This document shows, one piece after another, positions 7,478-49,264 of a DNA stretch of 64,000 bases. Each line of letters begins with the position of its first letter. Within the stretch, counting starts at the first letter, position 1. Where the stretch lies: assembly GCA_016748015.1 (NCBI GenBank), contig JAAOMT010000599.1, forward strand, positions 372,001 through 436,000. Direction: 5' to 3'. A model generated the notes under the pieces. That model saw only the letters and a list, made by a program, of their open reading frames with translations, did not search any database and was not told the DNA's origin. The position numbers and the translations under genes are program-made. Source of the stretch: Geosiphon pyriformis uo1. Lineage: Eukaryota; Fungi; Glomeromycota.

Positions 7478-8457
7478 TGTTACTGGAGGTTTTTGGTCTC
7501 TTCTTAGCTCTTGTATGTTTGTTGTAATGCTGTTAATTCATGACTATGGAAAGTGTTTGAACTTCCGATAACTGAATTTATTCTTTCAAATTATCTCTTA
7601 TAATTTGAATTGCTGGGCTTATAGTAGAATAGCCAATTCCATGCCAGTTACTTGTATAGTTATGTTGTAGTAAACATCAATTTTTTTTCAAAAAATGCTC
7701 GTCTGGAAGCTCACTAAATTGGTGTAGTTACTTTGCTGTGAAAGTCAACTCTTCTACAGAAATCTCATCTGTAGGCTACCTTTAATGATTATGATAAAAA
7801 AAAGAAAAAAAAAGAAGGAAAATGTAAAAAAAAATGAAAGATAATTTATGAAAGTCATTTCGGATCCAGGTCTGGAAGTGTTTTAACAGTTTACTGAAAT
7901 TGGTAGCTAGTTAATTTCAAACTGTTAGTAAGAATTGGTTAATTTTAAGAGAAAGAATTAGGAATTTGGTTTTTCAAATTATCTGATATTTATTTCTTTT
8001 TGTGTATATAGGAACAGTTCTAAGAGATAATCTAAAGTAAGATACATTTTTTTGAAGAGAGAAGCTCTTCTTTTATACAACTTGTTGTAACACTATTCTA
8101 TGAACTTGAACTTTGCTCTTTTCTACAATTTTACTGAACTAAAGATACATTTCGGCAAACTACAAGTTATTTCTGTGAACTATTAAATATTTTGGGGAAC
8201 TATCAATTATTTCAGCAAATTTCTACAAATTTTGACAAACTTTTGAATATTACATATTTCAGGGTATTGTATAATTGATCATCGCAATTAAGTTACATTT
8301 GTGTTATGTACAAATTGGATTATTAATTAAATGATAATTTCAGATATTTTGCTAAATATAATAAGTGATAATTGAAATGATAATATATGCTAATTAATGA
8401 TAGAAATTATAAGAGTAATTTCATGCTAAATAATATCTCTAATTTTGTCTGGTAACA
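7478..8457 (-). repeat. 3' LTR of Gypsy A (alpha subtype)
   Basis: TGTTACT...GGTAACA; preceded on the minus strand by PPT GAAGAGGAGG. Confidence 0.95.
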
Positions 8458-9103
8458 TAACCTCCTCTTCAAGACTGAGCTCCATTGAAGTCCAAGTACT
8501 GTCTGTAATTTCCAGATAGTAGTCCAAGATTATTGAAGAAATTTGGTCTGAAAATTGTTGAAATTTCAGTTCTGTGAGCTTTCCAATATATTGGATCTTC
8601 AGGGGTTGTAAAATTGGGTTTTGTAGGACGTTTTCACAGGTGTGAAATAGGTCATAAAGTCTAAGGGCAGCTCTGAGCTTGTAGTGACTATTTGTTGGTC
8701 TAACTGTTGTCTTAAATTCGTTGTGGAGTTGTTTCTGAATAGCTTTTTTTGTGAGGTTTGCTGTTGTAAGTTCCAGTTTTTGTTCATAGAGTGTTTTTCC
8801 AATGTGAAAATATCTATAAATTGGAGGGTATTCAGTGCTTTTCTCATTGAAACACAGTTGAAGTCTTTGTTGAATTGTAGCATTTGGTGGAATACTAATT
8901 GAAGTGAGCATTAAGTTTTCTCTTAAAGCAAGCTTTAAAAGTTTTGGCAGGTGAATTCCAGAATAACTTCTTATGTTCTTCTTATAAGGGTGATATTTTC
9001 GTGAATTTGGGGCTAAATTTGTAACTACTTCTGTTTGGGTATAATTAATGTAGTTTTTAGTAACAGTAATAGATAATTTGGGTATTGTTTTTAAAGCTAA
9101 CAT
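8426..9103 (-). CDS. Gypsy A ORF3, 225 aa, unknown function, sense orientation between integrase and 3' LTR
   Basis: Uninterrupted ORF running through the PPT into the LTR. Homologous to 11027-11704 and to the degenerate ORF at 43299-43928 in family C. Confidence 0.75.
   Translation of the reverse strand: MLALKTIPKLSITVTKNYINYTQTEVVTNLAPNSRKYHPYKKNIRSYSGIHLPKLLKLALRENLMLTSISIPPNATIQQRLQLCFNEKSTEYPPIYRYFHIGKTLYEQKLELTTANLTKKAIQKQLHNEFKTTVRPTNSHYKLRAALRLYDLFHTCENVLQNPILQPLKIQYIGKLTELKFQQFSDQISSIILDYYLEITDSTWTSMELSLEEEVMLPDKIRDII
8461..8470 (-). other. Polypurine tract (GAAGAGGAGG)
   Basis: Lies 3 nt upstream of the LTR on the minus strand. A second copy is at 11062-11071. Confidence 0.85.
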
Positions 9104-9307
9104 TAGTTTTTGAGATAATTGTTGAATGTTTTAAGGGATAGTTATTATAAGGGAATTGAATTAAAAGAAAAATAAATTGAAATTATTTTTGGTGTGTGGG
9201 TTTTTATGTTTATTTTTGATTTTGTTTTCAGTGTTTTTGTTATGTTTTTGTGGAATTGTTTCTAAATTATAAGGGAATAACTATAGTAATATATATTATT
9301 TAGGTGT

Positions 9308-10087
9308 TCAAGTTGGAAGATTGTTAATGACAACTATTGGTTCTAAATTTTGGGGAATATCTTCAGGATTAATTAAAGGGGAATGTGTACCAATTTGTGA
9401 AATTAATGATTCAGGATTGTTTCTGGAATGATAGTGTTTCAAATGATCTCCATGTACAACTTTTGCTAGGATTTTGTCATCAAATCTTAACTTGTATGAT
9501 CTATTGCCTAGAATTTCATGGATAAAGAATGGTCCATCTCATTTATTTTCAAATTTTCCACTCTATTGTTTTTCAGCCTTAGTTCTATGTAAGAAAACTT
9601 TGTTTCTAACTTTAAATTTGTTGATGACTGGTGGCAATTTGTTGTCATGCCATTCTTTTTGTTGAGCTTGGGAGTATTCAATGTGAATTGCTGCTATTTG
9701 TCGTTTTTCTTCCAATGTGCTAAGCAGAGTATAAGCTCTTTGCTGTAGTGTTTCCTAAAAGTTGTCTTCATTAATTGGTTGTACTGGGTATGTTTCCACT
9801 GTGAAATTAATTAGTAATGTTGCTGTTTTTCCGTAGGTTAAATCAAATGGTGTGTGTTTTGTGGTATCTTGTTTTAGTGTTCTATATGCTAGTAACACTA
9901 ATGGAATAAAGATATCCCATTCTTGCTCAAAATTGGTTGAAACTTTGGCTAATGATTCACACAATGTTCTGTTGAAACATTCTACAAGTCCATTTGTTTG
10001 TGGATAGTAGGGCGAAGATAATGGTCTTTTGACATTGAATTGTTCACAAAATGTGTTCCTTGATCAAATAAAAGTTCAATTGGGCAT
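9308..10087 (-). pseudogene. Truncated integrase C-terminal half (first copy), cut off by the middle LTR
   Basis: Duplicates 11879-12692; GPF motif (WDGPF); ends LEPIVVINNLPT*. Confidence 0.9.
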
Positions 10088-11058
10088 TGTTACCAGAGGT
10101 TTTTGGTCTCTTTGTATGTTTGTTGTAATACTGTTAATTCATGACTATGGAAAGTGTTTAAACCTCCAATAACTGAATTTATTTTTTTGAATTATCTTCT
10201 ATAATTCGAATTGCTGGGCTTATAATGGAATGGCCAATTTCTTGCCAGTTACTTTATGTAGTTACATTGTAGTAAATGTCAACTCTTTCCCAGGAATTGC
10301 TCGTCTGGAAGCTCACTAAAAATGTGTAATTACTTTGCTGTAAAAGTCAACTCTTCTACAGAAATTTTGTCTGTAGGCTACCCTAATGATTATAATAAGA
10401 AAATAAAAGAAATGTAAAAGAAATGTAAAAGAAATTAAATTCTGTCAAGAGAAACATTTTCTATCCAGGCCTGGAGTCACTAACAGTTTACTGAAATTGG
10501 TAGTTAATCAATTTCAAGACATTAGTTGGGTTTTGGAGATTTTCCAAGTGCAATAATTAAAGAATTTGGTTTTTCAAATTATTTGGTATTTATTTCTTTT
10601 TGTGTGTGTAGAAATAGTTCTAAGTAATAAATCTAAAGTAAGATACATTTTCTTGAAGAGAGAAGCTTTTCTTTTATACAACTTGTCATAACACTATTCT
10701 ATGAACTTGAACTTTGCTCTTTTCTATAATTTTACTGAACTAAAGATACATTTTGGTGAACTACAAGTTATTTCTGCAAACTATTAGATATTTCGGTGAA
10801 CTATCAATTATTTCGGTGAATTTCTACAAATTTTGGCGAACTTTTGAATGTTACATATTTCGGAGTATTGCATGATTGATCATCGCAATTAGATTACATT
10901 TGTGTTCTGTACAAATTGGGTTATTAATTAAATGATAATTTTGGACATTTTGCTAATGTAATAAGTAATAATTTGAAATAATAATATATGCTAATTAATG
11001 ATAGGAATTATAAAAATAATTTCATGCTAAATAATATCTCTAATTTTGTCTGATAACA
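10088..11058 (-). repeat. Internal (middle) LTR, family A beta subtype; 3' LTR of a nested copy
   Basis: TGTTACC...GATAACA; adjacent PPT at 11062-11071; diagnostic segment (ttctgtcaagagaaac) shared with solo LTR 4668 but not with 7478 or 18971. Confidence 0.93.
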
Positions 11059-11704
11059 TAACCTCTTCCTCAAGACTGAGCTCCATTGAAGTCCAAGTAC
11101 TGTCTGTAATTTCCAGATAATAGTTCAAGATTATTGAAGAAATTTGGTCTGAAAATTGTTGAAATTTCAGTTTTGTGAGCTTTCCAATGTATTGAATCTT
11201 CAAGGGTTGTAGAATTGGGTTTTGTAGGACGTTTTCACAGGTGTGAAATAGGTCATAAAGTCTAAGGGCAGCTCTGAACTTGTAGTAACTATTTGTTGGT
11301 CTAGCTGTTGTCTTGAATTCGTTGTGGAGTTGTTTCTGAATAGCTTTTTTTATAAGGTTTGCTGTTATAAGTTCCAGTTTTCGTTCATAGAGTGTTTTTC
11401 CAATGTGGAAATATCTATAAATTGGAGGGTATACAATGCTTTTCTTATTAAAACACAGTTGAAGTCTTTGTTAAATTGTAACATTTGGTGGGATACTAAT
11501 CGGAGTGAGCATTAAGTTTTCTCTTAAAGCAAGCTTTAAAAGTTCTGGCAAATGAACTTCAGAATAACTTCTTGTGTTTTTCTTATAAGGGTAATATTTT
11601 CATGAATTTGGGGCTAAATTTGTAATTACTTCTGTTTGGGTATAATTAATGTGGTTTCTAGTAACAGTAATAGATAATTTGGATATTGTTTTTAAAGCTA
11701 ACAT
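11027..11704 (-). pseudogene. Gypsy A ORF3, second copy with CGA>TGA and CAA>TAA stops
   Basis: Same 678-nt length as 8426-9103 and colinear with it. Confidence 0.85.
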
Positions 11705-11878
11705 TAGTTTTTGGGATAATTGTTGAATTTTTTGAGAGATAGTTATTATAAGGGAATTGAAATGAAAGAAAAATAAATTGAAATTATTTTTGGTATATGG
11801 GTTTTTATGATATTTTTGTTTTGTTTTTGTGAGATTGTTTCTAAATTATAAGGAGATAATTATAATAATAAATTTAAA

Positions 11879-13261
11879 TTAAGTGTTCAAGTTGGGAGGT
11901 TGTTTAATGACAACTATTGGTTCTAAATTTTGGGAAATATTTTTGGGATTAATTAAAGGGGAATGTGTACCAATTTGTGGAATTAATGATTCAGGATTGT
12001 TTCTGAAATTATAGTGTTTCAAATGATCTCTATATACAACTTTTGCTAGGATTTTGTTATCAAATCTTAACTTGTATGATCTATTGCCTAGGATTTTGTG
12101 GATAAAGAATGGTCTATCTCATTTATTTGCAAATTTTCTACTCCATTGTTTTTCAGCTTTAGTTTTGTGTAAGAAAACTTTGTTTTCAACTTTAAATTTG
12201 TTGGTGACTAGAGGCAATTTGTTGTTATGCCATTCTTTTTGTTGAGCTTAGGAGTGTTCAATATGGGTTGCCGCTATTTGTCATTTTCCTTCCAATGTGC
12301 TAAGCAAAGTGTAGGCTCTTCGTTGGAGTGTTTCCTGAAAGTTGTTTTCATTAATTGGTTGTACTGGATATGTTTCTACTGTGAAACTAATTGGTAATGT
12401 TGCTGTTTTTCCATAGGTTAAATTAAATGGCGTGTGTTTTGTGGTATCTTATTTTAGTGTTCTATATGCTAGTAACACTGATGGAATAAAGATATCTCAT
12501 TTTTGCTCAAAATTGGTTGAAACTTTGGCTAATAATTTACACAATGTTCTGTTAAAACGTTTTACAAGTCTATTTGTTTGTAAATGATAAAATGAAGATA
12601 ATGGTCTCTTAACATTGAATTGTTCACAAATTTCTTGGATTAGATTGTTCACAAAATGTGTTCCTTGATCAGATAGAAGTTCTATTGGGCATCTATGTCT
12701 ACAAATAATGTCTTCATAAATGAAGTTTGCTACTGATTTTGCATCTGCTTGTTGAATGGCTCTGGCTTCGGGCCATTTAGTGAGATAATTTACAGCTACT
12801 ATGATATAATGGTTTCCTTGGTTTGTGATAGGTAGTGGTCCGATTAAATCAATACCAACTCAGTCAAAAGGCTGTCTAACTTTGATTGGGTTTAAAGGTT
12901 CTGTAGGGTGAGTTCCTCCTCTTCTTTGACAGCTATTACAAGATTCAACATACTTGTGAATGTCTCTTCTTATTCGGGGCCAAAAATAATGTTCTAATGT
13001 TCTTTAGATGGTGCTATCTTTTTCTAAATGTGCCAATGTAGAGTCTGAGTGCATGTTGTATAAGACAGTTTCCTTTTCATTTTCTTGTATTAATCTGAGT
13101 GGTTTGTCTGGGTTTCTGAAGTTTTAATAATAGATGATATTATTGTGTAGAAAATATTGTTTGGCTTGTTGTAATCAATGTTTTTCATCTGAGGACCAAT
13201 TTGTTGGGATTGTTAATGTCTTTAAATATTGTTTAAGATTGTTGTAGTTTTCAGGGTTCAT
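11879..13261 (-). pseudogene. Gypsy A integrase (HHCC, DDE core, GPF, no chromodomain), Met-initiated
   Basis: MNPENYNNLKQYL...H...H...CNSC...GIDLIGP...SDQGTHF... Confidence 0.88.
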
Positions 13262-15149
13262 TGTTTGCTGTTTTGTTGCTGTTAATTCAAATGGGTGTTG
13301 GTTTTGTGTTCTAATCTTGCCTTATTCTTGAGAAACAATTAACATTGGTGTGGAGCTTTCCTGGTTTGTGGTGTACAATGTAATGGTAGTTGGCTAAAAA
13401 TCCTGTCCATTGGATTTGTTTGGCATTCAGCTGAGTGTTTTTGTTCTGAAGCCATTTGAGTCCAATATTATCAATGATAATATCAAATTCTTTTGGTCTA
13501 AGATAAAGGTTGAAATGATGTAAGGCCCATATTACTGCTGCTGTTTCTAGTTCAGTTGCAGGGTAATTCTTTTTAGTGGGTTTCAATGTCCTGCTAGCAT
13601 AAGTAATTACTTGCTCATTCCCATTGTCATCCAATTGTAATAGGATGGCACCAAAGGCAGTATAAGAGGCATCTGTTGCTAATCAAAATCAATTGCTAAA
13701 ATCTGGGTAGGCAAGAATTGAAGCTGTCATTAGTTTTTCTTTGAAGATTTCAAATGCATTTTGGTGTTCAGTAGTTCATTTGTATTCGATGTTTTTGGTG
13801 GTAAGTTGGTTAAGAGGTTTTGCGATTTCTGAGAATCCTTTGATGAACTTTCAGTAATAGGAGGCTAACTCTATAAATCCTCTTAGTTTTGTCATGTTTC
13901 GAGGAGTTTTGAAGTTTTTGACAGCACTGATTTTTTCAGGGTCCAGTTTGATTCCATCTTTACTAACAATATGACCAAGAAAGGCCAAGCTTGTTTTTCC
14001 AAAATAGCATTTTTCGATGTTGAGTTTCAGTTCTGCTTTTCGTAATTGTTGAAAAACTTCTCACAGGTGTTTTAAGTGTAATTCGTATGATGGAGAATAA
14101 ACATCAGTATCATTAAGATAAATGACTACTGACTTTCAAAGGAGTTCTTTGTACACAACATCCATTAATTTTTGAAATGTTGCTAGTGCATTGCATAATC
14201 CGAAAAGCATTACATTGAATTTGTAATTTCCTCCTTGGATTGTGAAGGCTGTTTTGGAACAATCTTTGGGATCTATGGCAACTTGCCAGTATCTGTTTTC
14301 CAGATCTAGTGTTGAAAAGTATTTGGTCTTTCCAAGAGATCCAACATATCATCAATTTAGGGAAGGAGATAGGCATCTCCAATGGTGATACTGTTGAGTT
14401 GTCGGTAATCAACACAAAATCATATCTTTCTATTTTTCTTTTTAACTAAGACTACAGGTGAGTTCCATGGACTCATTAACGGTTGAATAAGCCCATTGTT
14501 AAGCATCCGTTGTACTTTTTCTCAGATAAATTGGTAACTTTCTAAAGCAACTTGGTAGGCTTGTTGTCACCTTGGTTTGGCATCTCTTGTATAGATTTGG
14601 TGTTGAACCAAATTGGTTCTTCCTAAGTTATTGTTGTTTTCAGCAAAGATGTCAGCATATTCTGCAATTAGCTCTTTGAGCTGGTTCTGTTGTTGTGGTT
14701 CAAGTTGTCTTATGTTGATTCAGGATAGTTTTTCCATAACAACATGGTAGTTTTTGGAGCTAGAGCTTAAGTTGATTTTTGGTAGTGAATGTTCAATGAT
14801 TTCAGAGAAATTGGGGACTATTTGGGGTAATTCTTGTTGAAAGATATTACTGTGAATAACTCCAATTTCTAAGTTATTTAATAAAACTATGGGGTAATTA
14901 TTTGGATTGTAAAAAGTAACTTGGACTTTCTTTGTTCCTTCTGGGATGTAAATATTTGGGATCAAGATATTATGTTCCAAGTAGATTTGTTCATTGGACT
15001 TAAAAATTTGTTGTGTGGTTGTTGGTTTTTCGCAAGTGTAAATTTTGGGATGTTTTCCAAAAGGTGAAATAGTAATTGGTTGGGGAAGGCATAGAATCTG
15101 GTAAGATTCATTTTGAGTATTAAGAGCTACATTAACTGACATAGTAAAT

Positions 15150-15535
15150 TGTCCAGTTGAACCAAAACCTTTGGTTCCTCTTTTGCTTTGACCTAATTGT
15201 TTTTTTTGGCTGACTAGTTGTAAATCTGAAATGTTGATCAAGAGTAAATAGATAGCTTAGGCAATTTTCTCAGTATGTTCAATCCTAAATGGCTTATCAG
15301 TCTCATTTTGGAGCATTACTGTTATGTCTCTAGTATATCCAGCGTCAATTATTTCTCTTCTGATATTGATTTTTTTGCTTGCCAAAGAGGACCGGGAAGC
15401 GATTTGAACCATCGCTCCAGGTGGAATTTTGAAAGCAATTTTGAGGTTGATTTTTATAAGAGATTTTGGTTGAAGAGTGAGAGTATCTTTTCCTGAATAT
15501 CTCAGGTCATATCCAGTATCAATATCATGAGCTTT
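15150..15535 (-). pseudogene. dUTPase domain of Gypsy A
   Basis: All five trimeric dUTPase motifs: TGYDL, ASRSS, IIDAGY, KIA(Q), RGTKGFGSTG. Confidence 0.93.
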
Positions 15536-18500
15536 TTCAGGTTTTATTTCTTGACCATTATTGTTGAAGTATTTGAATTGTAAAGTAGGCTGATTTTCAA
15601 TGAGATAAATAGACATTGTTTCAATTTCTTTTGTTACTTCAGATTCTCCAAATTTGATTTCATATTCGTCGTTTTCACTGGGCAGGGGAATGCTAAGAGC
15701 ATAGCATTCAGGACACCATTGTTCATCACAAGGCATTATGCATTCTTCACATAATTTAATGTTTATTTGCTTTAGCCATTGAGCTTGAGCTTCTTTGGTC
15801 GGGTAAGTGTGACTTGCAATTTGGTGATATGCTTCTACTTCATCTTTGTAGTTGTATTCAGTGATTTCAAAGGTGTATGCAATATATTCTGATTTTTTCA
15901 TTTGGCAAATATTTTCTTGAGTGGCTCCATTGATTAAAGCCATTGCTAGGTCAAAAATCATTTTAGTATTATAAGGGTAATGATATAGTTTGTTGAGGGT
16001 GCTGTTGTAAGCAGCATCAAAAGGAGTTCCTCTTATTACTTTTTCTGAGATTAAAAAGGCATATTGGCATGTTTGATCACAGACTCCCCCTCTGAATGCA
16101 ACATCAATCCAGTTGCATTCATCAGGTAATCGTTCTCCACAAGTCAAACAGAGCATTCCATCCCATTTTCTATTTCTTTTGACTAGATGTCCCTATCATT
16201 CTCAGTGGCAGGATTTGCAATAGTAACAGGTGTGACTTTCATATTCTTCTTCAGGTAAAATACAAGCTTCCATTGATGATAGTTTCTTGTGGCAGTCCTT
16301 ACATTTAAGAGGAATGTAAGGGCGTCATTTCCTTGGCTCAGGCTTTGAGTAAGGGATATTCCATCTATGGGTTTCGGGTTTAGAGTGTGGTGTAAAATGT
16401 TCTTGTTCAGTTTTATCAGCCCAATTGGATGTTGATTCAAGAGCCATGAATGTTTTGATTAGTGGTTTTTCTGCTTCTGGTTTGAATTTAAAAGCCGGGG
16501 CTTTTTCGGAGCATTTGTTGAATGTATCACAAGTGACAGGTACTTGGGTATGTTGTCCTTGATAGGAGATTTGTAATTCTTGGGTTTCCCAGTCTAATTT
16601 TGTATTGGCTTTTTGGAGCCAATTGTTTCTAACAAGGGCTTAATACTAGGGAGCATCTATTACAAGAACTTTAACTGGAATGGTGATTCCATCAAGAATA
16701 AATGGAAAATTGTCAATTTCTCCAACTGGAGTCTTTTTTATGTCATCGGCAGTGACAATTACTGTTTGAGCTGGTTAGTTGACATTTCTTTTTAACTGTT
16801 GCATTAACTGGTAAGTAATAATACTTTCTGCTGATCCACTGTCTAGAATTAAGTGAATAGGCTTTCCTTCGACTTCAGCTTTAGTGTACATTGCAGTGAT
16901 GGCTTTTTGCTTGTTAGCTGCTGCATTGTTAAGCAAAAATGGTGATTTATTTGCTTCAAATTCGAAAAGAAAAATATCAGAGAAATTGGCATTTTCAGCA
17001 ATTCTGGTTGGTGGGATAGTGGTGTTGTTTTTAGAAGGGTTTTGTTGTTGTGCTGTAGCTCTATCTTCTGAGAATGCAGTATGATGAAAATCCTGTTTTT
17101 CTGGCATTTTTAAATAACTGGGTTGAGTGTGGTAATGATTAGGTCTTGTTTGGACTGGATTTTGGGGAACCAATTGGTTATTTGGGTTGATTTTGTTGTT
17201 GTTTGTTGTGAATCAGTTTTGTGGTACAAATTGGTTTTGTTGAACTAATCGTTGAGCAGATACTTGGTAATATTAAATGGGGAGTTGTTGATATGGTTGT
17301 TGCATTGGCTGTGGAGTAGGTTGATAATAGTTGTTTTGATATTAGGGTCTTGATAGATAGTAAGCTGATGGTGGTAGTGATTGGTAATAAGATTGTTGTG
17401 GTGAAGGGTAACGTTGATTACTCCTGTTTTGTTGGTTTTGTTGTAGCTTTCTGCAATCTTTTTTCCAGTGGCCAGGAATTCCACAGTAATGGCAATTCTG
17501 AGACTGGTTATTAGAGGATAAGGTAAAGCTATTTTGATTTCGTTTTTGGAGTGGTTGATACTTTTGGGGTTGCTGTTGTTGTTGATTGGTGAAGTAGTTT
17601 TCAACTTTCTTTGTGAGTTGGTCAATTTTTTCCTTAGCTGCTGAGCTGGTTTCTCCAATGGCTAAGTTTATAAGTTTTGTACGATTGGCTTCTTTCATGG
17701 CCATTTCATATCTCTTTGCATGCTAAATGGCAGAGTTTAAATCTTCTGGGGCATGTGGGCAAACCTTTTTAATCAATTTATTCTTTAAACCAGCAATAAA
17801 TTGATCCAAAATTTGAGCATCGGAATAATAATCATTAGTTTCAAGTTGGCAAATTTGTCTGAGAAGTTTGTTGAATTTCCCAATATAAGTCATGACAGAT
17901 TTGGATGGCTTTTGTTTGATATTTCGGAAGCAATTCTGGAGAGTGATAGAAGTGTTGTTGTCGGTAAACTGTTCTAAGAAGGCAGTTTTCAAGACTGTCC
18001 AGTTATAAAAAGGGGTGGTCAAGTTTTCGAACCATTCGCCTGCTGTTTCTTTGAGAAAGTAGAAAATTGTTTTTAACATTCTGGCAGCATTTCATCCATT
18101 TGCATCTCCAGCTTTAGTAACTTGGTCAAGCCATTCTTGGAGACTGGTCTCAATGTCTTCTTCATTAAATTCAGGGATTTTTGCAATGTATGCTGTCATT
18201 TTGTTTTCTTCGTTTTCACTGTCTATTGATTTTTCTTGTTCTGATTCAGTTTTTTCACTTTCCAGACTTTCTGAATAATTACTTTCATTTTCTTGTAAGT
18301 AATCAATGATATTGGCACTTGTTGATATTGGTTCCTGCTGTTGAGTAGGATTTCTAGGTGACTGATAATCTTCTGGTCTGAAGAAACATTTAAGTAGTAA
18401 ACTTGGCGTTTGTGAGTGAACAAGTGAAATTGAAAATGATGTAATAGAAAGTGGTAATTTGACACTGGTTCTTTGTTCAGGTGTTTGCAAGTATTTGGCA

Positions 18501-18950
18501 GTTGTTGTTGGTAGTATTGGAGTATTTGGGGTGGTTCTTGAATATTGTTTCAATTTTTGTTTGCTTTTGTTGCTTGTTTCTGTCTCTGATTCAAAATCAA
18601 TAAAGTATTAAGATTGTACTGGATATGTTTCTTCACAGTACTTGATAATGTTAAAATTAAGTTCATGAAAGTAAGTGGCAAGTGTTTCACTATTAAGGTT
18701 TTCAGTTCCCAACTGTAAATAGTGCACTAAATTATTGTAAAAGTTGCTTCTAACTTCTGAGATGTTGTAATTTCCAAAAAGATAATTGTTGATGTGATTT
18801 TCAATATATTGGTATACTGATTTTTTGATAACTTCAATTCTATCTGGAATGTTGAATCTTTGCTTGCAGTGGGTATAAATTGACTGGTAATATTCTAGAG
18901 TTGTTGTGTCTGGTGTGGTTGCCACTTTGAAGTTGTTTTTGCTGTGTTGT

Positions 18951-18968
18951 TTCCATGAGAGAGCACCA
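18951..18968 (-). other. Primer binding site of Gypsy A (TGGTGCTCTCTCATGGAA)
   Basis: TGG start 2 nt after the 5' LTR; complementary to a tRNA ending GAGAGCACCA. The tRNA identity was not determined. Confidence 0.8.
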
Positions 18969-18970
18969 AA

Positions 18971-22900: not shown

Positions 22901-23340
22901 CAGTGGCTTAATAGTCAAGTTGGTTTGTAATCTTGCTGAGAGTCACAGATCAGATATCTGGTTGCCTGCTGCTAAATTGAGAGCTTTTTATGAAAAGCAC
23001 AATCTTCTGCCATGTGATGGATTTGCTGTGCCATTGATTAATAGTTTGTCGAATTTGTGGGATACTAGTGTCATCTATGGCTTTGGTTTCAGGTTGGGTG
23101 TTTATTTGTGTTTTGGTTTATGTTCTTGCTTCACTAAGCTGGGCTTTGGTTTCTTGAATAGTATACCTTTAACAGATCCTGCATATGTGTAGTGCTGCTT
23201 TGACTGGGCCAAGTATCTGGTCATGTGTAGAAAAGGCATAAGCCACATTTAATTTGAAATTTTTTTTTGATTTTATGTATTTAGGTAGTGGTTAGACTGT
23301 ACTTGTTAAACTTACAATAAATAAATAAATAAAAAATAAA

Positions 23341-29065: not shown

Positions 29066-29208
29066 ATTATTTATTTATTTTTTTTATTAAAGATTTTACA
29101 AGTGCAGCCCAACCACTACCTAAGTACATAGAATACACAGAATCTAAATTAAGCATGGTTCATGCTTTTTCTACATGTGACTAGCCACTTGGGCCAACCA
29201 AGGCAGCA

Positions 29209-34669: not shown

Positions 34670-35542
34670 TGTTACTTATAGAAATATAGGAAATATATTA
34701 GCATAATTATTAGCCAATCAGAAGTAAGCATAGTAAATGTGGAATTCCAGGATTCCTCTCAGGAATTGCAGGATTCCAGGAATTTCAGGATTCCCCAACG
34801 AGAAATTACAAGATTCCAGAATTCCAGGATTCCTCTCAAAGGAATCACAGAATTCCAGGAATTCCAGGATTCTTGTCATAAAGAATCAAGGAATTGAAGA
34901 ATCTCAATTATCAGTAGTATTAAAAACAGAAAAGACAGAATTGATACTACAGAATCCTTAGCAAAGAAACTATTCATCAAATAAATAATTATTCCATTTT
35001 TCAATTCACTCTCCACTATCAACACTTCATGTTGATAGTAATTGATACTTAACCACGCTGGAACAATAGCTTTTGATCACGGCTATTGATGAGATACTAA
35101 CTGACCACATTGCCTTGGCTTATTTTATTTAATTTCTTTATTTTTCCTTTATTTTATTTTCTTTCTTTTTTTGATTTTGTTGTTGTGTACTAATTGATTA
35201 AAGGATTAAGCACTAAAGTTATTGACGTCAAGGATAGCCTGGTAAAAGACCCAGAAATAAGGGTAGGATTTATATATTATCGGATAGCTTACCAGAAGGG
35301 CATGACTGCCAGACTAAATCCGGCCACCACATTAAGAAAGAAATTGGAAAAACTATTTGAAAGATACACCTACTATTGACACTATTGAATCTCTGTCTAT
35401 TATACAAAGAACTCCATCAAACCCTTCAGATACAAAACTTTCAGATACCATACCTTCCACACATTATCCACGAAAGTAGCTTTTGAGTACCAAGTTACGG
35501 GTTTGTTATTCAATACAACAGCAGAAATAATCATCTGTAACA
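34670..35542 (+). repeat. 5' LTR of Gypsy C, with GGAATTCC/ATTCCAGG tandem array in U3
   Basis: Direct repeat of 43942-44799; followed by the PBS. Confidence 0.95.
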
Positions 35543-35544
35543 TT

Positions 35545-35562
35545 TGGTGCTCCCTGTGAGAT
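35545..35562 (+). other. Primer binding site of Gypsy C (TGGTGCTCCCTGTGAGAT)
   Basis: TGG 2 nt after the LTR; shares TGGTGCTC with the family A PBS. Confidence 0.8.
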
Positions 35563-38500
35563 ATAATCTTACAGAGAACCAGCACCAACAACACCAAACC
35601 AAAAGTGGCAGAATCAGAAATTATAGGAGCAAACCATTTAGGATTCACAAAATCTTTATTTTAACACTATTGTCAATACTTGGGATTAAACCACAATCAT
35701 ATATCTGCCGAATCAGTCTTCAATTTCTACATCAACAAAAAGATTTTCTCTTTATTAGAAACACCAGTGAATACTGAATCAGCAAGAAAAATTTTCTATA
35801 AGGAATTAATTCAAAACACCAACCTACCAACAAACCATAATTTTGCATCCATTATCACTGAGATCAACAAAGAAATTGAACACCACACTCAACAAAGATA
35901 TCCAATTACATACGCTAGTAAAGGCAAGGGGAAATTACAAACCCCAGCAGTAACACCCTGAAAAATACAGCCACCTGCTTGGAAGAAAAACAGAGTTGAA
36001 TCCTCAAGCAACCCATCATACCACTATACATCTGGAAGCGCCATCAACATATCATCAACTAACGCGTTTCCATCAACTGTGACATCAGCATTTGGATGAT
36101 TCCCATTCTAAAATAGACAAAGGAAAACAGAATTGTTAGAACCATATGGTGAATACTTTGAAGAATTTAATTCGCAATCATCAACCCCATTAGAACTTTG
36201 ATCACCACTACCTTCACTAGATTTCGGAATCTCTAATCCATGGAAAGCAGCAGAATCAGAAAAGGAGGAAGAAGAATCAGAGGATCAAAAATTCACTTAC
36301 CTGCACCCGATCACTGAAAACCCGGAAGTTGAAACCCCGAACATTCAAACTCAGCAACAGTTAGAAAATCTGGAAATCAAAACTCCAAATATTTGAACAC
36401 CGCCAAATCAAAAAAATCAAAACCCCAAATTAATTAATCAGCAAAACTTACCTCCGGTAATTGTCATTAATCAACTGCCAATTAATCCCATAGCCAAACC
36501 CATACAGCAGCCACTTCAGCTACCACTCCAACAGCCAGGACAATAACAACTGCTTCAACAGCCACCACAACCACCTAACTTAGATCCAATGGCCTATGCA
36601 CCAATCGCAAAACTTGACAACTTTACGGGCGAAGAAAATGACACTCAAATATGGCTGAATGATGTAGAAAAAGCCATCGCAGCCAACGGATGAAATGACG
36701 CTTGAGCAATGCAAGCCATTCCCTACTTTCTCAAGAATACTGCCAATTCATGGTACTAGAGCTTGATTAATAAACCACAAGATTTTAATGCCTTCAAAAC
36801 AGAATTCCTAAGATACTTCAGCAACAATAACAGCATCAATTGCCTAGTCAATGCATTTACTACCATGAAACAAGAAGAAACTGAAACAGTCACCACTTAC
36901 CTGGGATGCTTCCATTGAAACCTATGCCAAATTCAAGCAATTAACGCCAACTATTTCACAGCACCACAGATACTCAATCAGTTTATCCATGGCCTGCGCA
37001 GCAGTATCTTACAACATGTATGTCCATTGCATTCAGGCACCCTTTAAAATGCAGTCACATGCACCAGAGATTTTGAATCCGCTGAGTCAGAGGCTAACCA
37101 CGCCCAAGCCGTTAATCTAGTAATGAACAGATCATCTGAATTGGATTCCAAATTGGAGAAGTTCAGTGAATCAATCAATAAGAGATTGGAAGAATACTTA
37201 GCTGACAATTATGCCATATATCAGCCTCCACAACGATGCAATAATCAAAGAAACTTTAATTGTGCTTAAAATCAATCACATCCATCTTCATCAACCAATC
37301 AACAGTGGCAACAGGAAACGCGTATTTGCCACTATTGTGGTAAACAAGGACATATCCAAATTGACTGTCACCAGCAGTTAAATAACCAACAATTAGGAAA
37401 TCTATATTGAAACCTCGATTGCTGGTTCCAAACTCTGAATCAGTACCCAAATCAAAACCCACCTGCTTACCTACTAGTGATACAGTCATCAGTCTATCAG
37501 TCTCCAGTATATCAACCTCCAATTTATCAGCTGCAGCCACAAGTAATATATCAACCGCAGCCACAAATAATCTATCAACCCTAACAGATCCAAACACCAC
37601 CCCAAAGCTTACCACCCAATGGAACCCAAAGACCGAGAATGACTCAACAGAGCTGGAGATCGGCAATGGTAGTCCATCAACCAATCCCCAGTTCTTTACA
37701 GCAACCATCTGGATTACGCCAGTGGAATTTGGGTACCAGTCAACTCCAAAACCTGAATTCCCAGAACTATTTAAGTCTCTTGGTCACCCCAGAAGACACT
37801 TCAACCAATAACCCAGCATTTACCCAAAAACAACTACTCACCAGTAATATCTCACCTGCTACCATTACCAAAGACAAGTCATTGGCCGCTATCTTCCCAT
37901 TTGAATTTGAAAAAACAGCTGCAATGCCATTATTTAGTGGAGCCGCTATTGAAGCCAAACCAATTACCGTGATATACACTGACACCAAAGTAGAAAGACA
38001 ATCCATCAAATTGATTCTGAACAGTGGTTCCGCAGGCAGCATAATCACAAGACAACTCATGGATCAATTAGGTCGCCGAGTTGATCGAGCTGCCAGCGCC
38101 AGAATCATCACAGCTGATGGAGCAACCAAAACTCCAATTGGCAAAATTGATAACTTTTCTTTTAAAGTCAATGGTATTATGACTCCTATTAAAGTTCTAG
38201 TGATGGAAGCCACTCAATACCAAGCTCTCGTTGGTAATAACTGGCTATCCAAAGTCAATGCAACATTAGACTGGAACACCCAGGAACTCCAGCTAACATA
38301 TCAAGGCCAATATATACATGTTCTGGCCATGTGTGGCCACTTCAAAACTCCTCCAAAAAAGAAACTATTGATCGAACTGGAGGAAGAGAAAAAAAAGCCT
38401 ACCTGGGAAGTCTACCAAGTGTCATGGACGGACGAAGAGCACAACAAACTACCACCAATACTCTCCTGGGATGACAGCAACAAGAGAAAAGGGAAACAAA

Positions 38501-39585
38501 CAGAAGAACTTACCTGGGAAACTGATGACCTGACATGGACTGACAACAACGAGAGTGAACCGACTTCAAGCTGGGAATAGGAAGAGGACAAAGAAAATAA
38601 AGGAAAAGGGAAAGAAGAAGAGACCACCCAAACCACCATTATTTATAATACCTACACTATACCACAATAATCTACCTATCGTTGACCTAAGCTTATATGT
38701 GTTGATTGTGGCAAAAAATTGTCGTCAATGGGCGCATGCTGTGGGGACGATGAGGAATATTCAATGGCAACTAGGTTCTATTGCCACTTATGTGTCCTTG
38801 AACGCTTTGGAAAATCCAAACAAGTAGGGAAATAGGACAATCAGCCATGCTTAGCTTGTGGAGAGACTCTCTTGGACGAAGGAATGTGGCATGACATTCC
38901 TGGACGTGGAGGAACGTGTGACGTAGAGTGTCAATACACGATTCTGATCAGCGACTGAGTTAAAAAGGAGACACCAATCGAAGCCACCTGGCAAAGAGCA
39001 GTGCGACAATTAGACAGTTGTCCACATGATGACGACAAAATTTGGAGAATGGCAACTGCCAAAATTAAAGGCGCATTGCCAGAAGAAATCCGGACAATCA
39101 AAAACAACCCACCAGAACCTATTGAGCTTGACTGGGATGCAAAGCCAGTTATAAATTTTCTAGAACCAGAAGAGTTCCATGAACACTACCAAAACTTGGC
39201 ACCCACTAGAGAAGAGCAAGAACAACGGCTAGTACAGTTAAATACAAAACTGTGTCGTCATTGTTTAATTCCCAGTGACTTTGAATATTGTGACGATTGT
39301 GACCTCATTTACAATCCACCACCATGCATGATTTACTCAATCCCTGAAGAAGAAGAACCAATCAGCAGCTGTGCATCGGAATCAGAATTGCTGATTAATC
39401 GCGATCCAGACTCCGACGATGACAATGAAAACACTGGTTCCAGCTCCATTCAAAATGGCAATGATGACGAAAACAATTCAGACTCAGATTCAAAACCCAA
39501 TTTAAACTATGAACAATACATTGCACTACCAGATCTCTCTAAGGAACAAGAGTTAAAATAGTATAGTGACAATGGGGAAGGTATT

Positions 39586-39981
39586 ATGCCAGAATTTGTG
39601 CATAATACGGATGTAGAGTTTGATCTAAGATATTCAAAAAAAGATGCCATCAAATTAGAACCGCATTCACGCACCTGCATTGATCTGAAAATAGCACTAG
39701 AGATTCTAGCAACAACAATGGTTCAATTAGCATCTAGGAGTAGTTTAGTGAAAAGAGGGATCAATATAAGAGGAGGAATAATTGATGCAGGATATGTAGA
39801 AAATATTATCGCCATGCTACAAAATAACTCAGAAAAGGCCTATATAATAGAGCCCAATGAAAAGATAGCACAGACAATATTCCTGCCTCTGATTAGAGTA
39901 GCTCAGTTAGTGTCAGTGGGAAAGAGGGAGGAATTAGGAATAACAGCGAGAGGAATACAAGGATTTGGATCAACGGGTAGA
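39586..39981 (+). pseudogene. dUTPase domain of Gypsy C
   Basis: Motifs EFDL, ASRSS, GGIIDAGY, KIAQ, RGIQGFGSTG. Confidence 0.94.
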
Positions 39982-41871
39982 ATAGATATATCAGTTAATA
40001 TGGCAGAGGAAAAAATTGTTGGCCAAGGAGAAATTATCTCAACCGGTCAAGCTATTTCCATTCCACCATATAGCCAGTACATGTTAGCAATAAAAAGGAA
40101 GGAAAAAGAGCAAAAACAGATTTTTGAAGTGGAAACAACCCTTTGTGAATTAGGAGAAATTGGGTTGATCAATCTCCACATACCAGCCAAAAGCTATAGA
40201 AGCATAAAAATTCCCATCTACAACAACACTGACAATATCATCAACATACCAGAAGGAACCACTATCAGATATTTAACCACAGAAATAGAAAACCAACCAC
40301 CAAACTCCATTCCAGACTTTCCACAACTTTGTGGATATGTTGACATCACATCACAAACAATCTATGAATGAGACAAATGTTATTTGCTCCAACCAGAACA
40401 ATTGGAACAAATGAACATGGGAAACTTAAATCCACTCCAATGTATGCAGCTCAAGATGTTACTCAACAATTTCAATGACATCTTTGTCAGCGAAAATGAG
40501 TTTGGCCGAACTGATATCATCCAGCATCAAATCAAGACTGAAGATACAATGCCAATCAAACAAAGAGCATACAGAGTGCCACCAGCCAGCCACAAGATTA
40601 TTCGTCAAAAGATAAACAGAATGCTTGACAATGGGCTAATTCAATCATTAATGAGTTTATGGTCATTACCAGTGGTACTCGTCTGTAAGAAAAATGGAAA
40701 AATCCAGTTTTGTGTAGACTACAGGAAACTTAATGATGTAATTTGTGGAGACAGTTATCCAACTCCACAAATACAGAAATTATTCGATGCTTTCGGTGAG
40801 AACAAATGGTTCTCCACATTAGATTTGAACAGTGGTTACAGGGAAATAGCCATGAATCCAGCTGACAAAAAGAAGACAGCATTTATTACTAGAGAAGAGA
40901 ATTTTGAATTTGAAGTAATGCCATTTGGGTTAACCAATACCCTTGCAACTTTTCAATAGCTAATGGAAATTGTTTATATTGGTTTATTGTGGAAATCAGT
41001 AGTTGTATACTTGGACAACACCAATGTATTCTCAAAGACATTTGATGATTATTTTCATCATCTTCAACAAGTGTTCGAAAGACTAAGAAGAGTAGGACTA
41101 AAGTTAAATGTGACAAAGTGCTTTTTTGGCAAGACAAAACTCAAATTTTTGGAACACATAGTCAGCAAAGACGGCATCAAAATGGATCCAGAGAAAATAG
41201 AGATAGTAAAGAACTTTCCAGTGCTGACTAATATAACAGAACTGAAATCATTCTTAGGATTTGCCAGTTACTATCGTCGTTTTATCAAGAACTTTTTCAA
41301 GATAGCACAGCCACTTAATCAATTGCAAAACAAAAATGCAAAATATAAATGGACAGAAAGTTAACAAGAAGCTTTTGATATTCTAAGAAAAAAGCTTATC
41401 CAAGCTCCAGTACTGATCTATCCAAATTACAGCAAACCATTCATCATCACCACTGATGCATCCGGCCAAGCATTGGGAGCAATATTATCTTAGAGAGGAC
41501 CAGACGGCAGAGAACATCCAGTAGCATATGCCAGTAGAGGTTTAACACCAGCCGAAAAGAACTATAGAACACCAGAACAAGAACACTTAGCAATATACTA
41601 CATTATGAAATGGAAAGAATACTTGAGCCAGAAGTTTGAAGTATACACAGATCACAAGGAATTAACATCACTTCAAAAACAAGAATTTGGAGATGGAAGA
41701 CAGTCAAGATGGAAAATAGCACTTGCACCATACAATTATACTATACATTACAAAAAGGGAAAAGACAACAGAAATGCTGACAGTTTATCGTGAATAAGAC
41801 AAATCTAAGAACATTTCAACCCAAAAATATAATAAAACCAGAACAATACCAATGGAAAAATACAACAAAAG

Positions 41872-43244
41872 ATGAACATACAAAAATATCAACAATTGCA
41901 ACACTATCTAAACACTCAACAGTTCAAGGAGAATTTATCTCATATGGAATGAAGGAGTATCAAACAATAATCAAAATATTATATTACTTACCAAAATATA
42001 CTTTATTGGAAAAATAAAAAGGATCCAGATCAACCAACCAGAGTAATTACGGAGCCAGAAAAAGAGACAATATTATTCAACATGCACTCAAATCCAACAG
42101 CAGGACATTTTCACAAAGAAGCAACCATGAAAAGAACTAGAAAAAGATACTATTGGCCATCAATATACCCAGACATCATTCAATATGTTCAAAATTGTGA
42201 TGCTTGTCAGTGAAGAAGAGGAACAAGATTCAGTGAATCATTAAGACCAATCAAAGTGGGACAACTATTTGACTGTATGGAAATTGATTTAGTTGGACCA
42301 TTAACAATTACCAGCAGAGGAAACAGATACATAGCAGTAGCTATGGACTATCTCACTAAATGGCCAGAGACGAAAGCAATTCAAAGAGTGGATACAGAAT
42401 CCATTGCCAAATTTGTTCATTAGGATTTGATTTGTCGACATGGATGTCCAAAAGAATTATTATCAGACCAAGGAACTCATTTTGTGAACAGAACATTAAC
42501 AGAATTGAGCCAAAGATTCAGAATCAAGAGACCATTATCATCACCATATCATCCACAAACCAACAGATTAGTAGAAAAATTCAACAGAACATTGTGTGAA
42601 ACAATAGCCAAGCTCAGCCAAAAAAACCAGAACAATTGGAATTTGTTCATACCATCAGTACTATTTGCTTATCGGACAACGAAACAGGATACTACACAAG
42701 CAAATTAGTATATGAGAGAATAGCAATGTTACCAGTAGAGAGAGAAATTAATACATATCCAGCTGAACCAATAACAGAAAAAAATTTTCAAGAAACATTG
42801 TTGAGAAAAACATATGACTTAATAAAAACATTGGAAAACAAATGAAGAAGAGCAGCTGATAATATCTAAAAGTCATAAGAAACACAGAAAAAAAGACACG
42901 ATAGTCAACTACCAGACAAACCAGTTAAATTCAAGATCGGAGACAAAGTATTATTACATCGTACCAAAGTGGAAAAACAATGGAGTAGAAAATTTGATCC
43001 CAAATGGGATGGACCATTTCACATAGAAGAAATTCTAGGAAATGGAGCTTACAAATTAAGATTGGATAACAAAATTTTAACCAAAGCAGCACATGGAGAT
43101 TGACTGAAATCATATCACAACATCACACTACCATCTACCAGTAATATTTCACAATTAGGAGTACAGAGAATACTAGTCTAACCAGATGAGATTCTTCAAG
43201 ATCTGGAACCAATCATTATTATCAACAACAACATGTTAAATTGA
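41872..43244 (+). pseudogene. Gypsy C integrase, Met-initiated, GPF domain, no chromodomain
   Basis: MNIQKYQQLQHYL...HSNPTAGH...CDAC...IDLVGP...SDQGTHF...WDGPF...LEPIIIINN; small frameshifting deletion at ~42700. Confidence 0.9.
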
Positions 43245-43298
43245 TTCATCAAAAGAATATATAAAGACATGATAGACATGACAGGAAATATCAGAAAA

Positions 43299-43928
43299 AT
43301 GGAAATTACAAACAACATTCACGCATTAGCACAACAACTCTTTTAATTAATCCAACACCAGGAAATGGAGATTACAATCAATCAACAAACCATTCAATAT
43401 CAAGATACTAGAAAGACATTTCAACTCAGAACACAGAAGAAAACTGAAAATACTGTAGACAAAATCATGGCAAAAGTAAAATTAGCAATAAAAAAATCGA
43501 CAAAAGAATCACTATATCAAGAGTTGACTAAAAAAACTTGGAATTGGTGGATACAACAATTTCCATGAAACTATTGTTATTTTTACTTGGGACAACACAT
43601 AAATATCCAGAATCTATATACAGATAAAACAAAGTAATTATTTGACAAAAGAATACTACAACAATTAGAACATTTTGTGGGAAAGAACAACTTATTCATA
43701 CAAGCCTGAGCCATATACCGAATACACACAGTATTTTAGAATAAACCAGAAATATTGCTCAACAGAGCAATGGATATGATTACCAGTAATCAATTGGGAA
43801 AAATCACAAATGCTCAATTTGAAGAATTACAGACCCAAATAACACAAGTAATTCTTGAAAACAAAATCCAGGAAATACTTCAAAAGGGGGAATTACATAA
43901 GTTAGATTTCGACGGAGCTCAATATTAA
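43299..43928 (+). pseudogene. Gypsy C ORF3 (homolog of family A ORF3), several C>T stops
   Basis: YCYFYLG...A(R)AIYRIHTVF...LGKITNAQFEELQTQITQVILE aligns with family A YRYFHIG...RAALRLYDLF...IGKLTELKFQQFSDQISSIILD. Confidence 0.75.
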
Positions 43929-43938
43929 AAGGAGGGAA
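43927..43938 (+). other. Polypurine tract AAAAGGAGGGAA
   Basis: 3 nt upstream of the 3' LTR. Confidence 0.85.
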
Positions 43939-43941
43939 TAA

Positions 43942-44799
43942 TGTTACTCATAGAAATATAGGAAATATATTAGCATAATTATTAGCCAATCAGAAGTAAG
44001 TGTAGTAAATGTGGAATTCCAGAATTTCTCTCAGGAATTGCAGAATTCCAGGAATTTCAGAATTCCCCAACGAGAAATTGCAGGATTCCAGAATTCCAAG
44101 ATTCCTGTCGTAAAGAATCAAGGAATTGAGGGATCCCAATTATGTATATATAGCAGTAGTGTTAGAAACAGAAAAGACAGAATCGATACTACAGAATCCT
44201 TAGCAAAGAAACCAATCATCAAATAAATAATTATTCCATTTCTCAATCCACTCTCCACTATCAACACTTCATGTTGATAGTAATTGATACTTAACCACGT
44301 TGGAACAATAGCTTTTGATCATGGCTATTGATGAGATACTAACCGACCACATTGTCTTGGCTTATTTTATTTAATTTCTTTATTTTTTCTTTATTTTATT
44401 TTCTTTTTTTCTTTGATTTTGTTGTTGTGTACTAATTGATTAAAGGATTAAGCACTGAAGTTATTGACATCAAGGATAATCTGGTAAAAGACCCAAAAAT
44501 AAGGGTAGGATTTATATATTATCGGATAGCTTACCAGAAGGGCACAACTGCCAAACTAAATTTGGCCACCATGTTGAGAAAGAAATTGGGAAAACTATTT
44601 GAAAAATATATCTACTATTGACACTATTGAATCTCTGTCTATTATACAAAGGACTCTATTAAACTCTTCAGATACAAAACCTTCAGATACAAAATTTTCA
44701 GATATCATACCTTCCGCATATTATCCACGAAAGTAGCTTTTGAGCACCAAGTTATGGGTTTGTTATTCAATACAACAGCAGAAATAATTACCTGTAACA
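43942..44799 (+). repeat. 3' LTR of Gypsy C
   Basis: Direct repeat of 34670-35542. Confidence 0.95.
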
Positions 44800-49180: not shown

Positions 49181-49264
49181 AATTATGTATTTTTAATATA
49201 TAAATAATTATTTAAACTTATGTTAAATTTTTATTTTTATTTTATTTAATTAATTTTTTAATAA

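What the first reader, a model, noticed from the sequence alone, without database searches (positions are those of the whole stretch)
7478..44799. Two diverged Gypsy families share an unusually complex, virus-like gene set (candidate undescribed lineage or system)
Seen in both A (7478-19951) and C (34670-44799), whose LTRs show no evident similarity beyond their termini: long N-terminal gag extension, capsid, CCHC, protease, a Cys-rich domain with three C4 clusters, a complete dUTPase, a dUTPase-like remnant, RT, RNase H ending in a stop, Met-initiated integrase with a conserved PxVxI tail and no chromodomain, a conserved ORF3, a TGGTGCTC PBS and a 4-bp TSD. Established: dUTPase between PR and RT is rare in LTR retrotransposons (known from Tuber Tmt1). 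Inference: this accessory set could be a module for surviving in and targeting a methylated, hypermutating repeat compartment. I do not know this combination as a described clade.
Basis: partly seen in the sequence, partly recalled or inferred. Interest (0 to 1): 0.8.

Follow-up and report, generated by a model that had tools for sequence, protein, structure and literature searches.

The report
Gene-rich fungal retrotransposons, separate integrase
These are two dead, long-diverged jumping genes, likely of the fungus Geosiphon, from an apparently unnamed branch in which the insertion enzyme sits in its own gene, and they carry extra parts (a uracil-removing enzyme, three zinc fingers and an unknown third gene) that likely help them copy themselves rather than shield them from host mutation.

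Summary
The anatomy is largely real. A and C are decayed Ty3/Gypsy LTR elements; all listed close relatives are Geosiphon pyriformis proteins. Both have gag, protease, three C4 clusters, dUTPase, RT, RNase H ending in a stop, an ATG-started integrase without chromodomain, ORF3, the same PBS and 4-bp TSDs. Corrections: A is a three-LTR chimera; the tail is PxVxI only in A; the gag extensions barely align; the dUTPase remnant is only weakly supported. The stop after RNase H is clade-wide: A, C and 17 metagenome relatives form one branch (98/93) apart from chromoviruses such as Tmt1. That branch uses the protease-RT interval as a cargo slot (dUTPase or a zinc finger); the triple finger was seen only in Geosiphon. 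Zinc fingers and dUTPase are about as conserved as the core enzymes. The 'survive methylation' reading is not supported (dUTPase cannot undo methyl-C deamination), but insertions do centre on CpG (6 of 6). This scan had already noted the separate integrase (another genome) and the CpG targeting (this genome). New variant of a known kind.

The parts
18971..19951 (-). A: 5' LTR (94.5% like 7478-8457)
18961..18968 (-). A: primer binding site TGGTGCTC
18200..18970 (-). A: open, Met-free N-terminal gag extension (1 stop in 257 codons); not clearly homologous to that of C
17447..18199 (-). A: capsid (first in-frame Met at 18199) and CCHC knuckle
16568..16921 (-). A: aspartic protease
15680..16324 (-). 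A: Cys-rich domain (two C4 fingers, helical bundle, third C4 finger)
15143..15547 (-). A: trimeric-type dUTPase, damaged
14813..15142 (-). A: post-dUTPase segment (weak, indirect dUTPase-fold likeness)
13311..14812 (-). A: RT and RNase H, frameshift near 14339, terminal stop ending at 13311
13262..13310 (-). A: 49-nt A/C-rich spacer between RNase H stop and integrase ATG
11879..13261 (-). A: integrase ORF (H2C2, DDE core, GPY/F-type SH3, LEPIVVI tail, no chromodomain)
11027..11746 (-). A: ORF3, first copy (2 stops), running through the polypurine tract into the middle LTR; start approximate
10088..11058 (-). A: middle LTR, 3' LTR of a copy nested in an older integrase
8426..10087 (-). A: 3' part of the older copy: integrase 3' half and stop-free ORF3 (8426-9130)
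7478..8457 (-). A: 3' LTR; TSD GTAG (7474-7477) / GTGG (19952-19955)
34670..35542 (+). C: 5' LTR; TSD TCAA (34666-34669) / TTGA (44800-44803)
35545..35552 (+). C: primer binding site TGGTGCTC
35560..36588 (+). C: Met-free N-terminal gag extension (343 codons)
36589..37368 (+). C: capsid and CCHC knuckle
37963..38298 (+). C: aspartic protease
38683..39330 (+). C: Cys-rich domain with three C4 clusters
39583..39987 (+). C: dUTPase, damaged in motif I
39988..40314 (+). C: post-dUTPase segment
40315..41808 (+). C: RT and RNase H, terminal TAA at 41806-41808
41809..41871 (+). C: 63-nt spacer with two further in-frame stops
41872..43244 (+). C: integrase ORF (frameshift near 42700; LEPIIII tail)
43299..43928 (+). 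C: ORF3 (broken by stops), 24% like A-type ORF3
43942..44799 (+). C: 3' LTR (93% like the 5' LTR at aligned positions)

Best explanation
A and C are dead copies of two long-diverged Ty3/Gypsy LTR retrotransposon families, likely of Geosiphon pyriformis, from a non-chromoviral branch in which pol stops after RNase H and the integrase is likely translated from its own ATG, with the extra domains likely serving the element's own replication. Shown: gag-protease-cargo-RT-RNase H is one frame; a stop, a short A/C-rich spacer and a family-conserved ATG precede the integrase; ORF3 follows and overlaps the polypurine tract. Inferred: the protease frees the cargo inside the particle. The dUTPase keeps uracil out of the cDNA when reverse transcription happens where host dUTPase is low. 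The C4 fingers bind nucleic acid or a partner protein. The integrase is made by reinitiation after the pol stop (or from a subgenomic RNA) and itself prefers CpG-centred 4-bp targets, which piles the elements into existing repeats. After insertion, copies decay by cytosine deamination regardless of the cargo.
For: RT-RNase H trees: all 40 of 91 rows that stop within 25 residues of RNase H, plus A, C and P0276, form one branch (SH 96); IQ-TREE on 41 rows gives 98/93, with chromodomain-bearing loci outside. Independent assemblies give identical lengths for these stop-ended proteins. The stop, extra stops and ATG are invariant across C copies; the spacer differs by 14 nt between A and C, and 32-nt skips occur. 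The dUTPase is 42-48% identical, with the same lead-in, to that of branch members P0291 and P0325; 10 of 27 checked relatives carry a C4 finger in the same slot. A-vs-C pN/pS is 0.39 (dUTPase) and 0.48 (fingers 1-2) against 0.40-0.51 for core domains and shuffled means of 0.74-0.93. ORF3 has 28-30% identical metagenome relatives with the same tract-encoded C-terminus. The dUTPase role is by analogy to retroviruses (PMC4531489 passages; PMC2864245 section 5).
Against: No intact copy and no RNA holder were available, so translation of the integrase, the extension and ORF3 is not observed. For the other branch members no downstream DNA was obtained (L040 ends about 115 nt after RNase H), so their separate DDE integrase is inferred. 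Synonymous sites are saturated; post-dUTPase (0.75), ORF3 (0.88) and the gag extension (0.91) do not beat the shuffled ratio, and finger 3 (0.51) does not beat the shuffled minimum (0.49). Within family A, ORF3 pN/pS 0.39 is inside the neutral simulation (19% as low). The bootstrap had not fully settled (0.986). Host assignment rests on protein hits, not a held genome.
Confidence: 0.7

Rival explanations
1. The accessory set (fingers, post-dUTPase segment, ORF3, integrase tail) is a module that reads methylated or HP1-marked chromatin, directs insertion there and counters silencing or mutation.
For: 6 of 6 insertion events have a CA or TG centre at one end or both (chance 1e-5 to 1.4e-4); all placed insertions are nested in other repeats; TEs are CG-methylated in Rhizophagus (10.1101/2021.03.30.436303, passages); non-significant Foldseek rows for the Cys domain include LIM and MYM-type fingers (E 1.5-9).
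Against: Copies are not protected: CpG sites differ in 47-62% of cases against 7-29% for other cytosines. dUTPase acts on the nucleotide pool, not on methyl-C in DNA. The tail is PxIxI in C. CpG-centred TSDs occur in Ginger1 transposases, Gypsy-integrase relatives with other C-terminal domains. Many branch members lack the triple finger.
Confidence: 0.15
2. The integrase is made as part of a Pol fusion by stop-codon readthrough, frameshifting or splicing, so the separate ORF is only apparent.
For: In C the integrase is in the same frame as RNase H; readthrough between gag and pol is proposed for Tj1 (PMC5911963, passage); no RNA was seen.
Against: Three in-frame stops are kept across C copies; in A the integrase is in another frame; both have an ATG at the homologous position; branch members end 0-25 residues after RNase H. 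Splicing is not excluded.
Confidence: 0.12
3. The branch is an already catalogued non-chromoviral group (Ylt1, SN_1006, or families in Repbase or the AMF repeat libraries), and the gene set has simply not been remarked on.
For: LTR elements cover 41.2% of the Geosiphon genome and most of its TEs matched known sequences (PMC11952901, passages), so consensus sequences likely exist in libraries; Ylt1 and SN_1006 are fungal non-chromoviruses.
Against: The fungal elements surveyed in PMC2864245 mostly had one fused ORF or two ORFs, gag and pol; ten searches found no clade with this layout.
Confidence: 0.2
4. Post-dUTPase segment, gag extension and ORF3 are functionless passengers.
For: A-vs-C ratios of 0.75-0.91 match the shuffled control; the within-family test is neutral-compatible.
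Against: Alignment scores of 56 (shuffles 12 or less) and 106 (9 or less) survive although synonymous sites are saturated; ORF3 is full-length in dozens of copies and has distant relatives. The gag extension remains open to this reading.
Confidence: 0.1

Closest known systems
Fungal dUTPase-bearing Gypsy elements: Tmt1 (Tuber), Phanerochaete elements, PosPlaTy3-5 (Postia)
   Same: Ty3/Gypsy order of domains; dUTPase between protease and RT in PosPlaTy3-5 (PMC2864245, section 5 read; the Tmt1 and Phanerochaete papers were not seen).
   Different: Tmt1 has a chromodomain and is a chromovirus (PMC12581995, passages), and the PMC2864245 dUTPase tree is of chromodomain-bearing elements; A and C lack the chromodomain, branch elsewhere, and have a separate integrase, a triple C4 domain and ORF3.
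Rotifer Juno/Vesta/TelKA and planarian Burro elements
   Same: Non-chromoviral, dUTPase (or dUTPase-like) between protease and RT, an extra zinc knuckle in Juno, extra ORF3s (PMC5408684, PMC6431247, passages).
   Different: Their ORF3s are env-like, GDSL esterase or DEDDy nuclease; ORF3 here matches no Pfam family. No integrase split was seen in the passages read. Phylogenetic relation not tested.
Ginger1 DNA transposons
   Same: Stand-alone Gypsy-type integrase with GPY/F module, TGT ends, 4-bp CpG-centred TSD (PMC2836005, passages).
   Different: Ginger1 are cut-and-paste elements with inverted repeats and no gag or RT; A and C are full LTR retroelements.
IN-fused Ty3/Gypsy elements among the RT hits (named ones are animal)
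   Same: Nearest RT outgroup; their segment before RT aligns weakly with the post-dUTPase segment (hhalign 57%, E 1e-4; shuffles score 16 or less against 31), and one of them hits Pfam dUTPase at E 0.0045.
   Different: Integrase is fused to RNase H; no full dUTPase, triple finger or ORF3 match.

Membership tests
Ty3/Gypsy (Metaviridae) LTR retrotransposon | Direct LTRs with TG...CA ends, PBS, polypurine tract, short TSD | tested here: met
Ty3/Gypsy (Metaviridae) LTR retrotransposon | Order gag-protease-RT-RNase H-integrase with DDE integrase | tested here: met
Ty3/Gypsy (Metaviridae) LTR retrotransposon | Integrase within the Pol polyprotein (the usual layout, not required for the family) | tested here: not met
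   stop, spacer and own ATG in both
Chromoviruses (incl. Tmt1) | Chromodomain at the integrase C-terminus | tested here: not met
   no Pfam Chromo in A or C, while control loci L043 and L048 score E 1e-16 to 1e-18
Chromoviruses (incl. Tmt1) | RT groups with chromoviral RTs | tested here: not met
   chromodomain-bearing loci L012, L043, L048 lie in a separate 100/100 branch; Tmt1 itself not in the tree
Ylt1 / SN_1006 fungal non-chromoviruses | RT-integrase phylogeny with Ylt1, Tca3, LacBicTy3-15 | not testable with these tools
   no reference sequences could be fetched; clades read in PMC2864245
Errantivirus / env-bearing elements | ORF3 is a membrane fusion glycoprotein | tested here: inconclusive
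   no Pfam or significant viral fold match; predicted core helical, mean pLDDT 53; nothing points to env
Homotrimeric dUTPase | Five conserved motifs in order | tested here: met
   Pfam E about 1e-15, PDB dUTPases E 2e-11; motifs present at family level, damaged in single copies
Homotrimeric dUTPase | dUTP hydrolysis | not testable with these tools
   needs an assay
dUTPase-fold remnant (post-dUTPase segment) | Detectable homology to dUTPases | tested here: inconclusive
   direct hhalign 0.4%; indirect 57% via the pre-RT segment of fused elements; not folded
HP1 chromoshadow-binding PxVxL motif (motif recalled) | PxVx(L/I) in both families and binding to HP1 | tested here: inconclusive
   PIVVI in A, PIIII in C and in one C-type annotated protein; binding not tested

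The most novel reading that the evidence does not exclude
An unnamed, widespread soil-fungal Ty3/Gypsy clade has turned the integrase into a separately translated gene with CpG target preference, and its Geosiphon sub-lineage, part of an LTR load of about 40% of that genome, added a three-finger domain and ORF3 that read methylated chromatin or suppress host silencing: a replacement for the chromodomain, and a living model for how Ginger1-type DNA transposons could arise from retrotransposons.
Probability: 0.15. Interest if true: 0.8.

Novelty: new variant of a known kind. Interest (0 to 1): 0.5.

Why it matters
Separate translation of the integrase departs from the usual LTR-retroelement layout and raises a testable question: how is integrase made and packaged if it is not part of Pol? 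The branch also shows a cargo slot between protease and RT that has taken up dUTPase and different zinc fingers. Practically, hundreds of Geosiphon 'hypothetical proteins' (at least 207 and 209 clusters, the 120 listed in each all from Geosiphon) are fragments of these elements, so gene-family counts for dUTPase and similar domains in that genome are likely inflated by retrotransposons. Each single part (dUTPase, extra ORF, fingers) has precedent, and no function for the unknown parts was shown.

Tried and rejected
No whole genome is held, so no copy census or tRNA match for the PBS; no tRNA in the window; the priming tRNA is untested. No RNA holder listed. Viral-contig scans with RT, integrase or motifs found nothing of the branch (one search gave 2 generic loci), nor did prokaryote-genome scans. 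Fold searches gave no significant match for ORF3 (best Z 5.2, rmsd 3.2, 62 aligned; viral E 0.15 or more) or the Cys domain (best Z 4.8, rmsd 3.2, 61 aligned; Foldseek E 0.65 or more); this does not show new folds. Atlas hits were weak or unnamed. Pfam gave nothing significant for fingers, post-dUTPase segment, ORF3 or gag extension, nor PHROGs for the first three. The hhalign hit was an artefact of overlapping columns and vanished after trimming. A recalled likeness of ORF3 to an expanded mycorrhizal protein family was not borne out: none of the 11 profile hits looked up was named from Rhizophagus or Gigaspora. RIP-type CpA mutation is rejected (CpA 7-19%). Wrong-frame slips (integrase C-terminus; protein 8) were discarded; the first two were redone. 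The Geosiphon genome paper is not held and may mention these domains; bioRxiv supplements and the AMF repeat libraries were not seen. Literature searches. No complex was predicted, because no host HP1-like protein was at hand.

Full report
Setting. The window is a stack of nested, decayed repeats (CpG observed/expected 0.09-0.36) with one gene block at 53-58 kb (0.91). No genome is held. All 120 listed relatives of a piece of the Cys-rich region (207 found) and all 120 listed relatives of ORF3 (209 found) are Geosiphon pyriformis 'hypothetical proteins' at up to 89% identity, so the host is very likely that fungus, whose genome is 41.2% LTR sequence (PMC11952901, passages).

Anatomy. C (34670-44799, plus strand) is a simple element: LTRs 93% alike, PBS, one gag-pol frame from 35560 to a TAA at 41806, a 63-nt spacer, integrase from ATG 41872, ORF3, polypurine tract. 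A (minus strand) has the same genes but three LTRs. The outer pair is 94.5% alike; the middle one (10088-11058) is about 85% like them and is followed directly by sequence from the middle of an integrase. The simplest history is that one copy inserted into the integrase of an older copy and recombination between their internal parts removed the rest (inference). A and C LTRs are unrelated apart from their ends. The TSD is 4 bp, shown by an empty site in a sister host repeat and by contigs of run X1 that skip 10,134 nt. Both elements are dead.

The accessory parts. The three C4 clusters are real and identically spaced in A and C. AlphaFold (pLDDT 69) predicts two small fingers, a helical bundle and a third finger, with no significant structural match. 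The dUTPase is of the trimeric type with five motifs at family level. The segment after it is 23% identical between A and C. It does not align with the dUTPase itself, but weakly with the pre-RT segment of 34 integrase-fused Gypsy proteins (57%, score 31 against 16 or less for 30 shuffles), one of which hits Pfam dUTPase at E 0.0045 in that stretch. It is thus more likely an old degenerate segment shared with other Gypsy lines than a fresh duplicate. ORF3 is full-length in dozens of copies, occurs in several Geosiphon variants, and of 91 profile hits among 1.84 billion representatives, 11 were looked up: 8 Geosiphon, 3 unnamed metagenome proteins. Two of these are 28-30% identical and end in the same stretch that in A is encoded by the polypurine tract and LTR start. 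The gag extensions are open but hardly align, and are depleted of ATG (7 seen against 23.7 expected; 0 of 600 in-frame codons against 41 of 2403 downstream, p 2e-4); how they would be translated is unexplained.

Selection. Between A and C synonymous sites are saturated (pS 0.58-0.81). pN/pS is 0.39 for dUTPase, 0.48 for fingers 1-2, 0.51 for finger 3 and 0.64 for the helical part, against 0.40-0.51 for capsid, protease, RT, RNase H and integrase, and 0.74-0.93 as shuffled means. Post-dUTPase (0.75), ORF3 (0.88) and the gag extension (0.91) do not differ from the control ratio, though the first two keep alignment scores far above shuffles. The two A-type ORF3 copies in the window differ as neutral transition decay would allow.

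Where the elements belong. An RT search gave 1137 hits, 120 listed. Of the 91 with enough RT-RNase H, 40 end within 25 residues of RNase H, 50 go on for 40 or more, 1 is intermediate. All 40, with A, C and P0276, form one branch, and a 41-row IQ-TREE run supports it at 98/93 (bootstrap not fully settled). Chromodomain-bearing loci lie outside, so these are not relatives of Tmt1, a chromovirus (PMC12581995). Members come from metagenomes; one cluster includes a Paraglomus brasilianum protein. Their protease-RT interval varies: 6 of the 120 carry a dUTPase, the two that could be placed lie in the branch and are 42-48% like those of C and A, and 10 of 27 checked carry a different single C4 finger. 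None of the 120 matched the triple finger, the post-dUTPase segment or ORF3 by BLASTP at 1e-3. The full set is therefore a Geosiphon elaboration of a wider design whose constant feature is the stop after RNase H.

How it likely works. Shown: stop, spacer, ATG; in C copies the stop, two more in-frame stops and the ATG have no variant at 8% or more; in A the integrase is in another frame. Inferred: integrase is translated separately, most simply by reinitiation across the 49-63-nt G/T-poor spacer; splicing is not excluded, as no RNA was available. The dUTPase likely lowers dUTP during reverse transcription, as in non-primate lentiviruses (PMC4531489) and as proposed for fungal elements (PMC2864245). 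It cannot prevent the decay seen here, which is CpG-biased transition (47-62% of CpG sites against 7-29%). All six insertion events have a CA or TG centre at one or both ends (chance 1e-5 to 1.4e-4; the right flank of the solo LTR at 4668-5650 is TCAG, read after an off-by-one). I had noticed this for C before reading an earlier scan note on it, and ran the count afterwards. Ginger1 transposases, integrase relatives, show the same preference (PMC2836005), so the integrase alone may explain it.

Known or new. dUTPase between protease and RT is described in fungi, rotifers and planarians. Ten searches found no description of this branch or gene set, but the Geosiphon genome paper was not held, and Repbase, GyDB and the AMF libraries could not be searched. 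Earlier notes of this scan report the separate integrase in another genome and CpG-centred TSDs in this one; they are unchecked AI notes, and I tested both points here.

Noticed in passing
window 7478-19951: Element A has three LTRs: a copy nested in the integrase of an older copy, followed by loss of the intervening part, leaves two ORF3 copies in tandem.
   Followed up: yes
window 35560-36588 and 18200-18970: The long frames before the capsid Met are ATG-depleted in all frames and Met-free in frame. In C the frame reaches into the 5' LTR, where an ATG near 35302 matches the start of one annotated copy (P0019); in A no in-frame ATG was seen. Suggests leaky scanning, a non-AUG start or splicing.
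   Followed up: partly
window 4668-5650, 46540-47367, 63752-64000: A solo A-type LTR with a perfect TCAG TSD, a C-type LTR (74% to C) with unmatched flanks, and a cut C-type LTR; all flanks have CA or TG at the centre.
   Followed up: partly
window 2958-7473 and 19956-23400 (+); 29000-34665 and 44804-46117 (-); 49500-52000 and 60300-63750 (-): The hosts of A and C are decayed LINE-like elements (an ORF1, then RT and an RNase H by Pfam) of one repeated family, 64-81% alike between copies.
   Followed up: partly
P0276, P0283, P0284, P0318: RT relatives with other cargo: a NUDIX domain before the protease in a branch member (P0276), and Dam-type adenine methyltransferase (one with a PHD finger) in elements outside the branch.
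   Followed up: no
window 53087-55630 (-) and 55700-57700 (-): Two ordinary host genes in a CpG-rich island: a pentatricopeptide-repeat protein and a Methyltransf_28 methyltransferase split across frames, likely by introns.
   Followed up: no
window 29040-29220, 46255-46534, 49115-49544, 59575-59905, 23186-23381: A short repeated element of about 280-350 nt lies at or near the 3' ends of the LINE-like copies and also apart from them.
   Followed up: no
P0245-P0258 and similar: Many branch members are 460-510-aa RT-RNase H proteins with no protease in front, at identical lengths in independent assemblies, hinting at a second break between protease and RT in some families.
   Followed up: no
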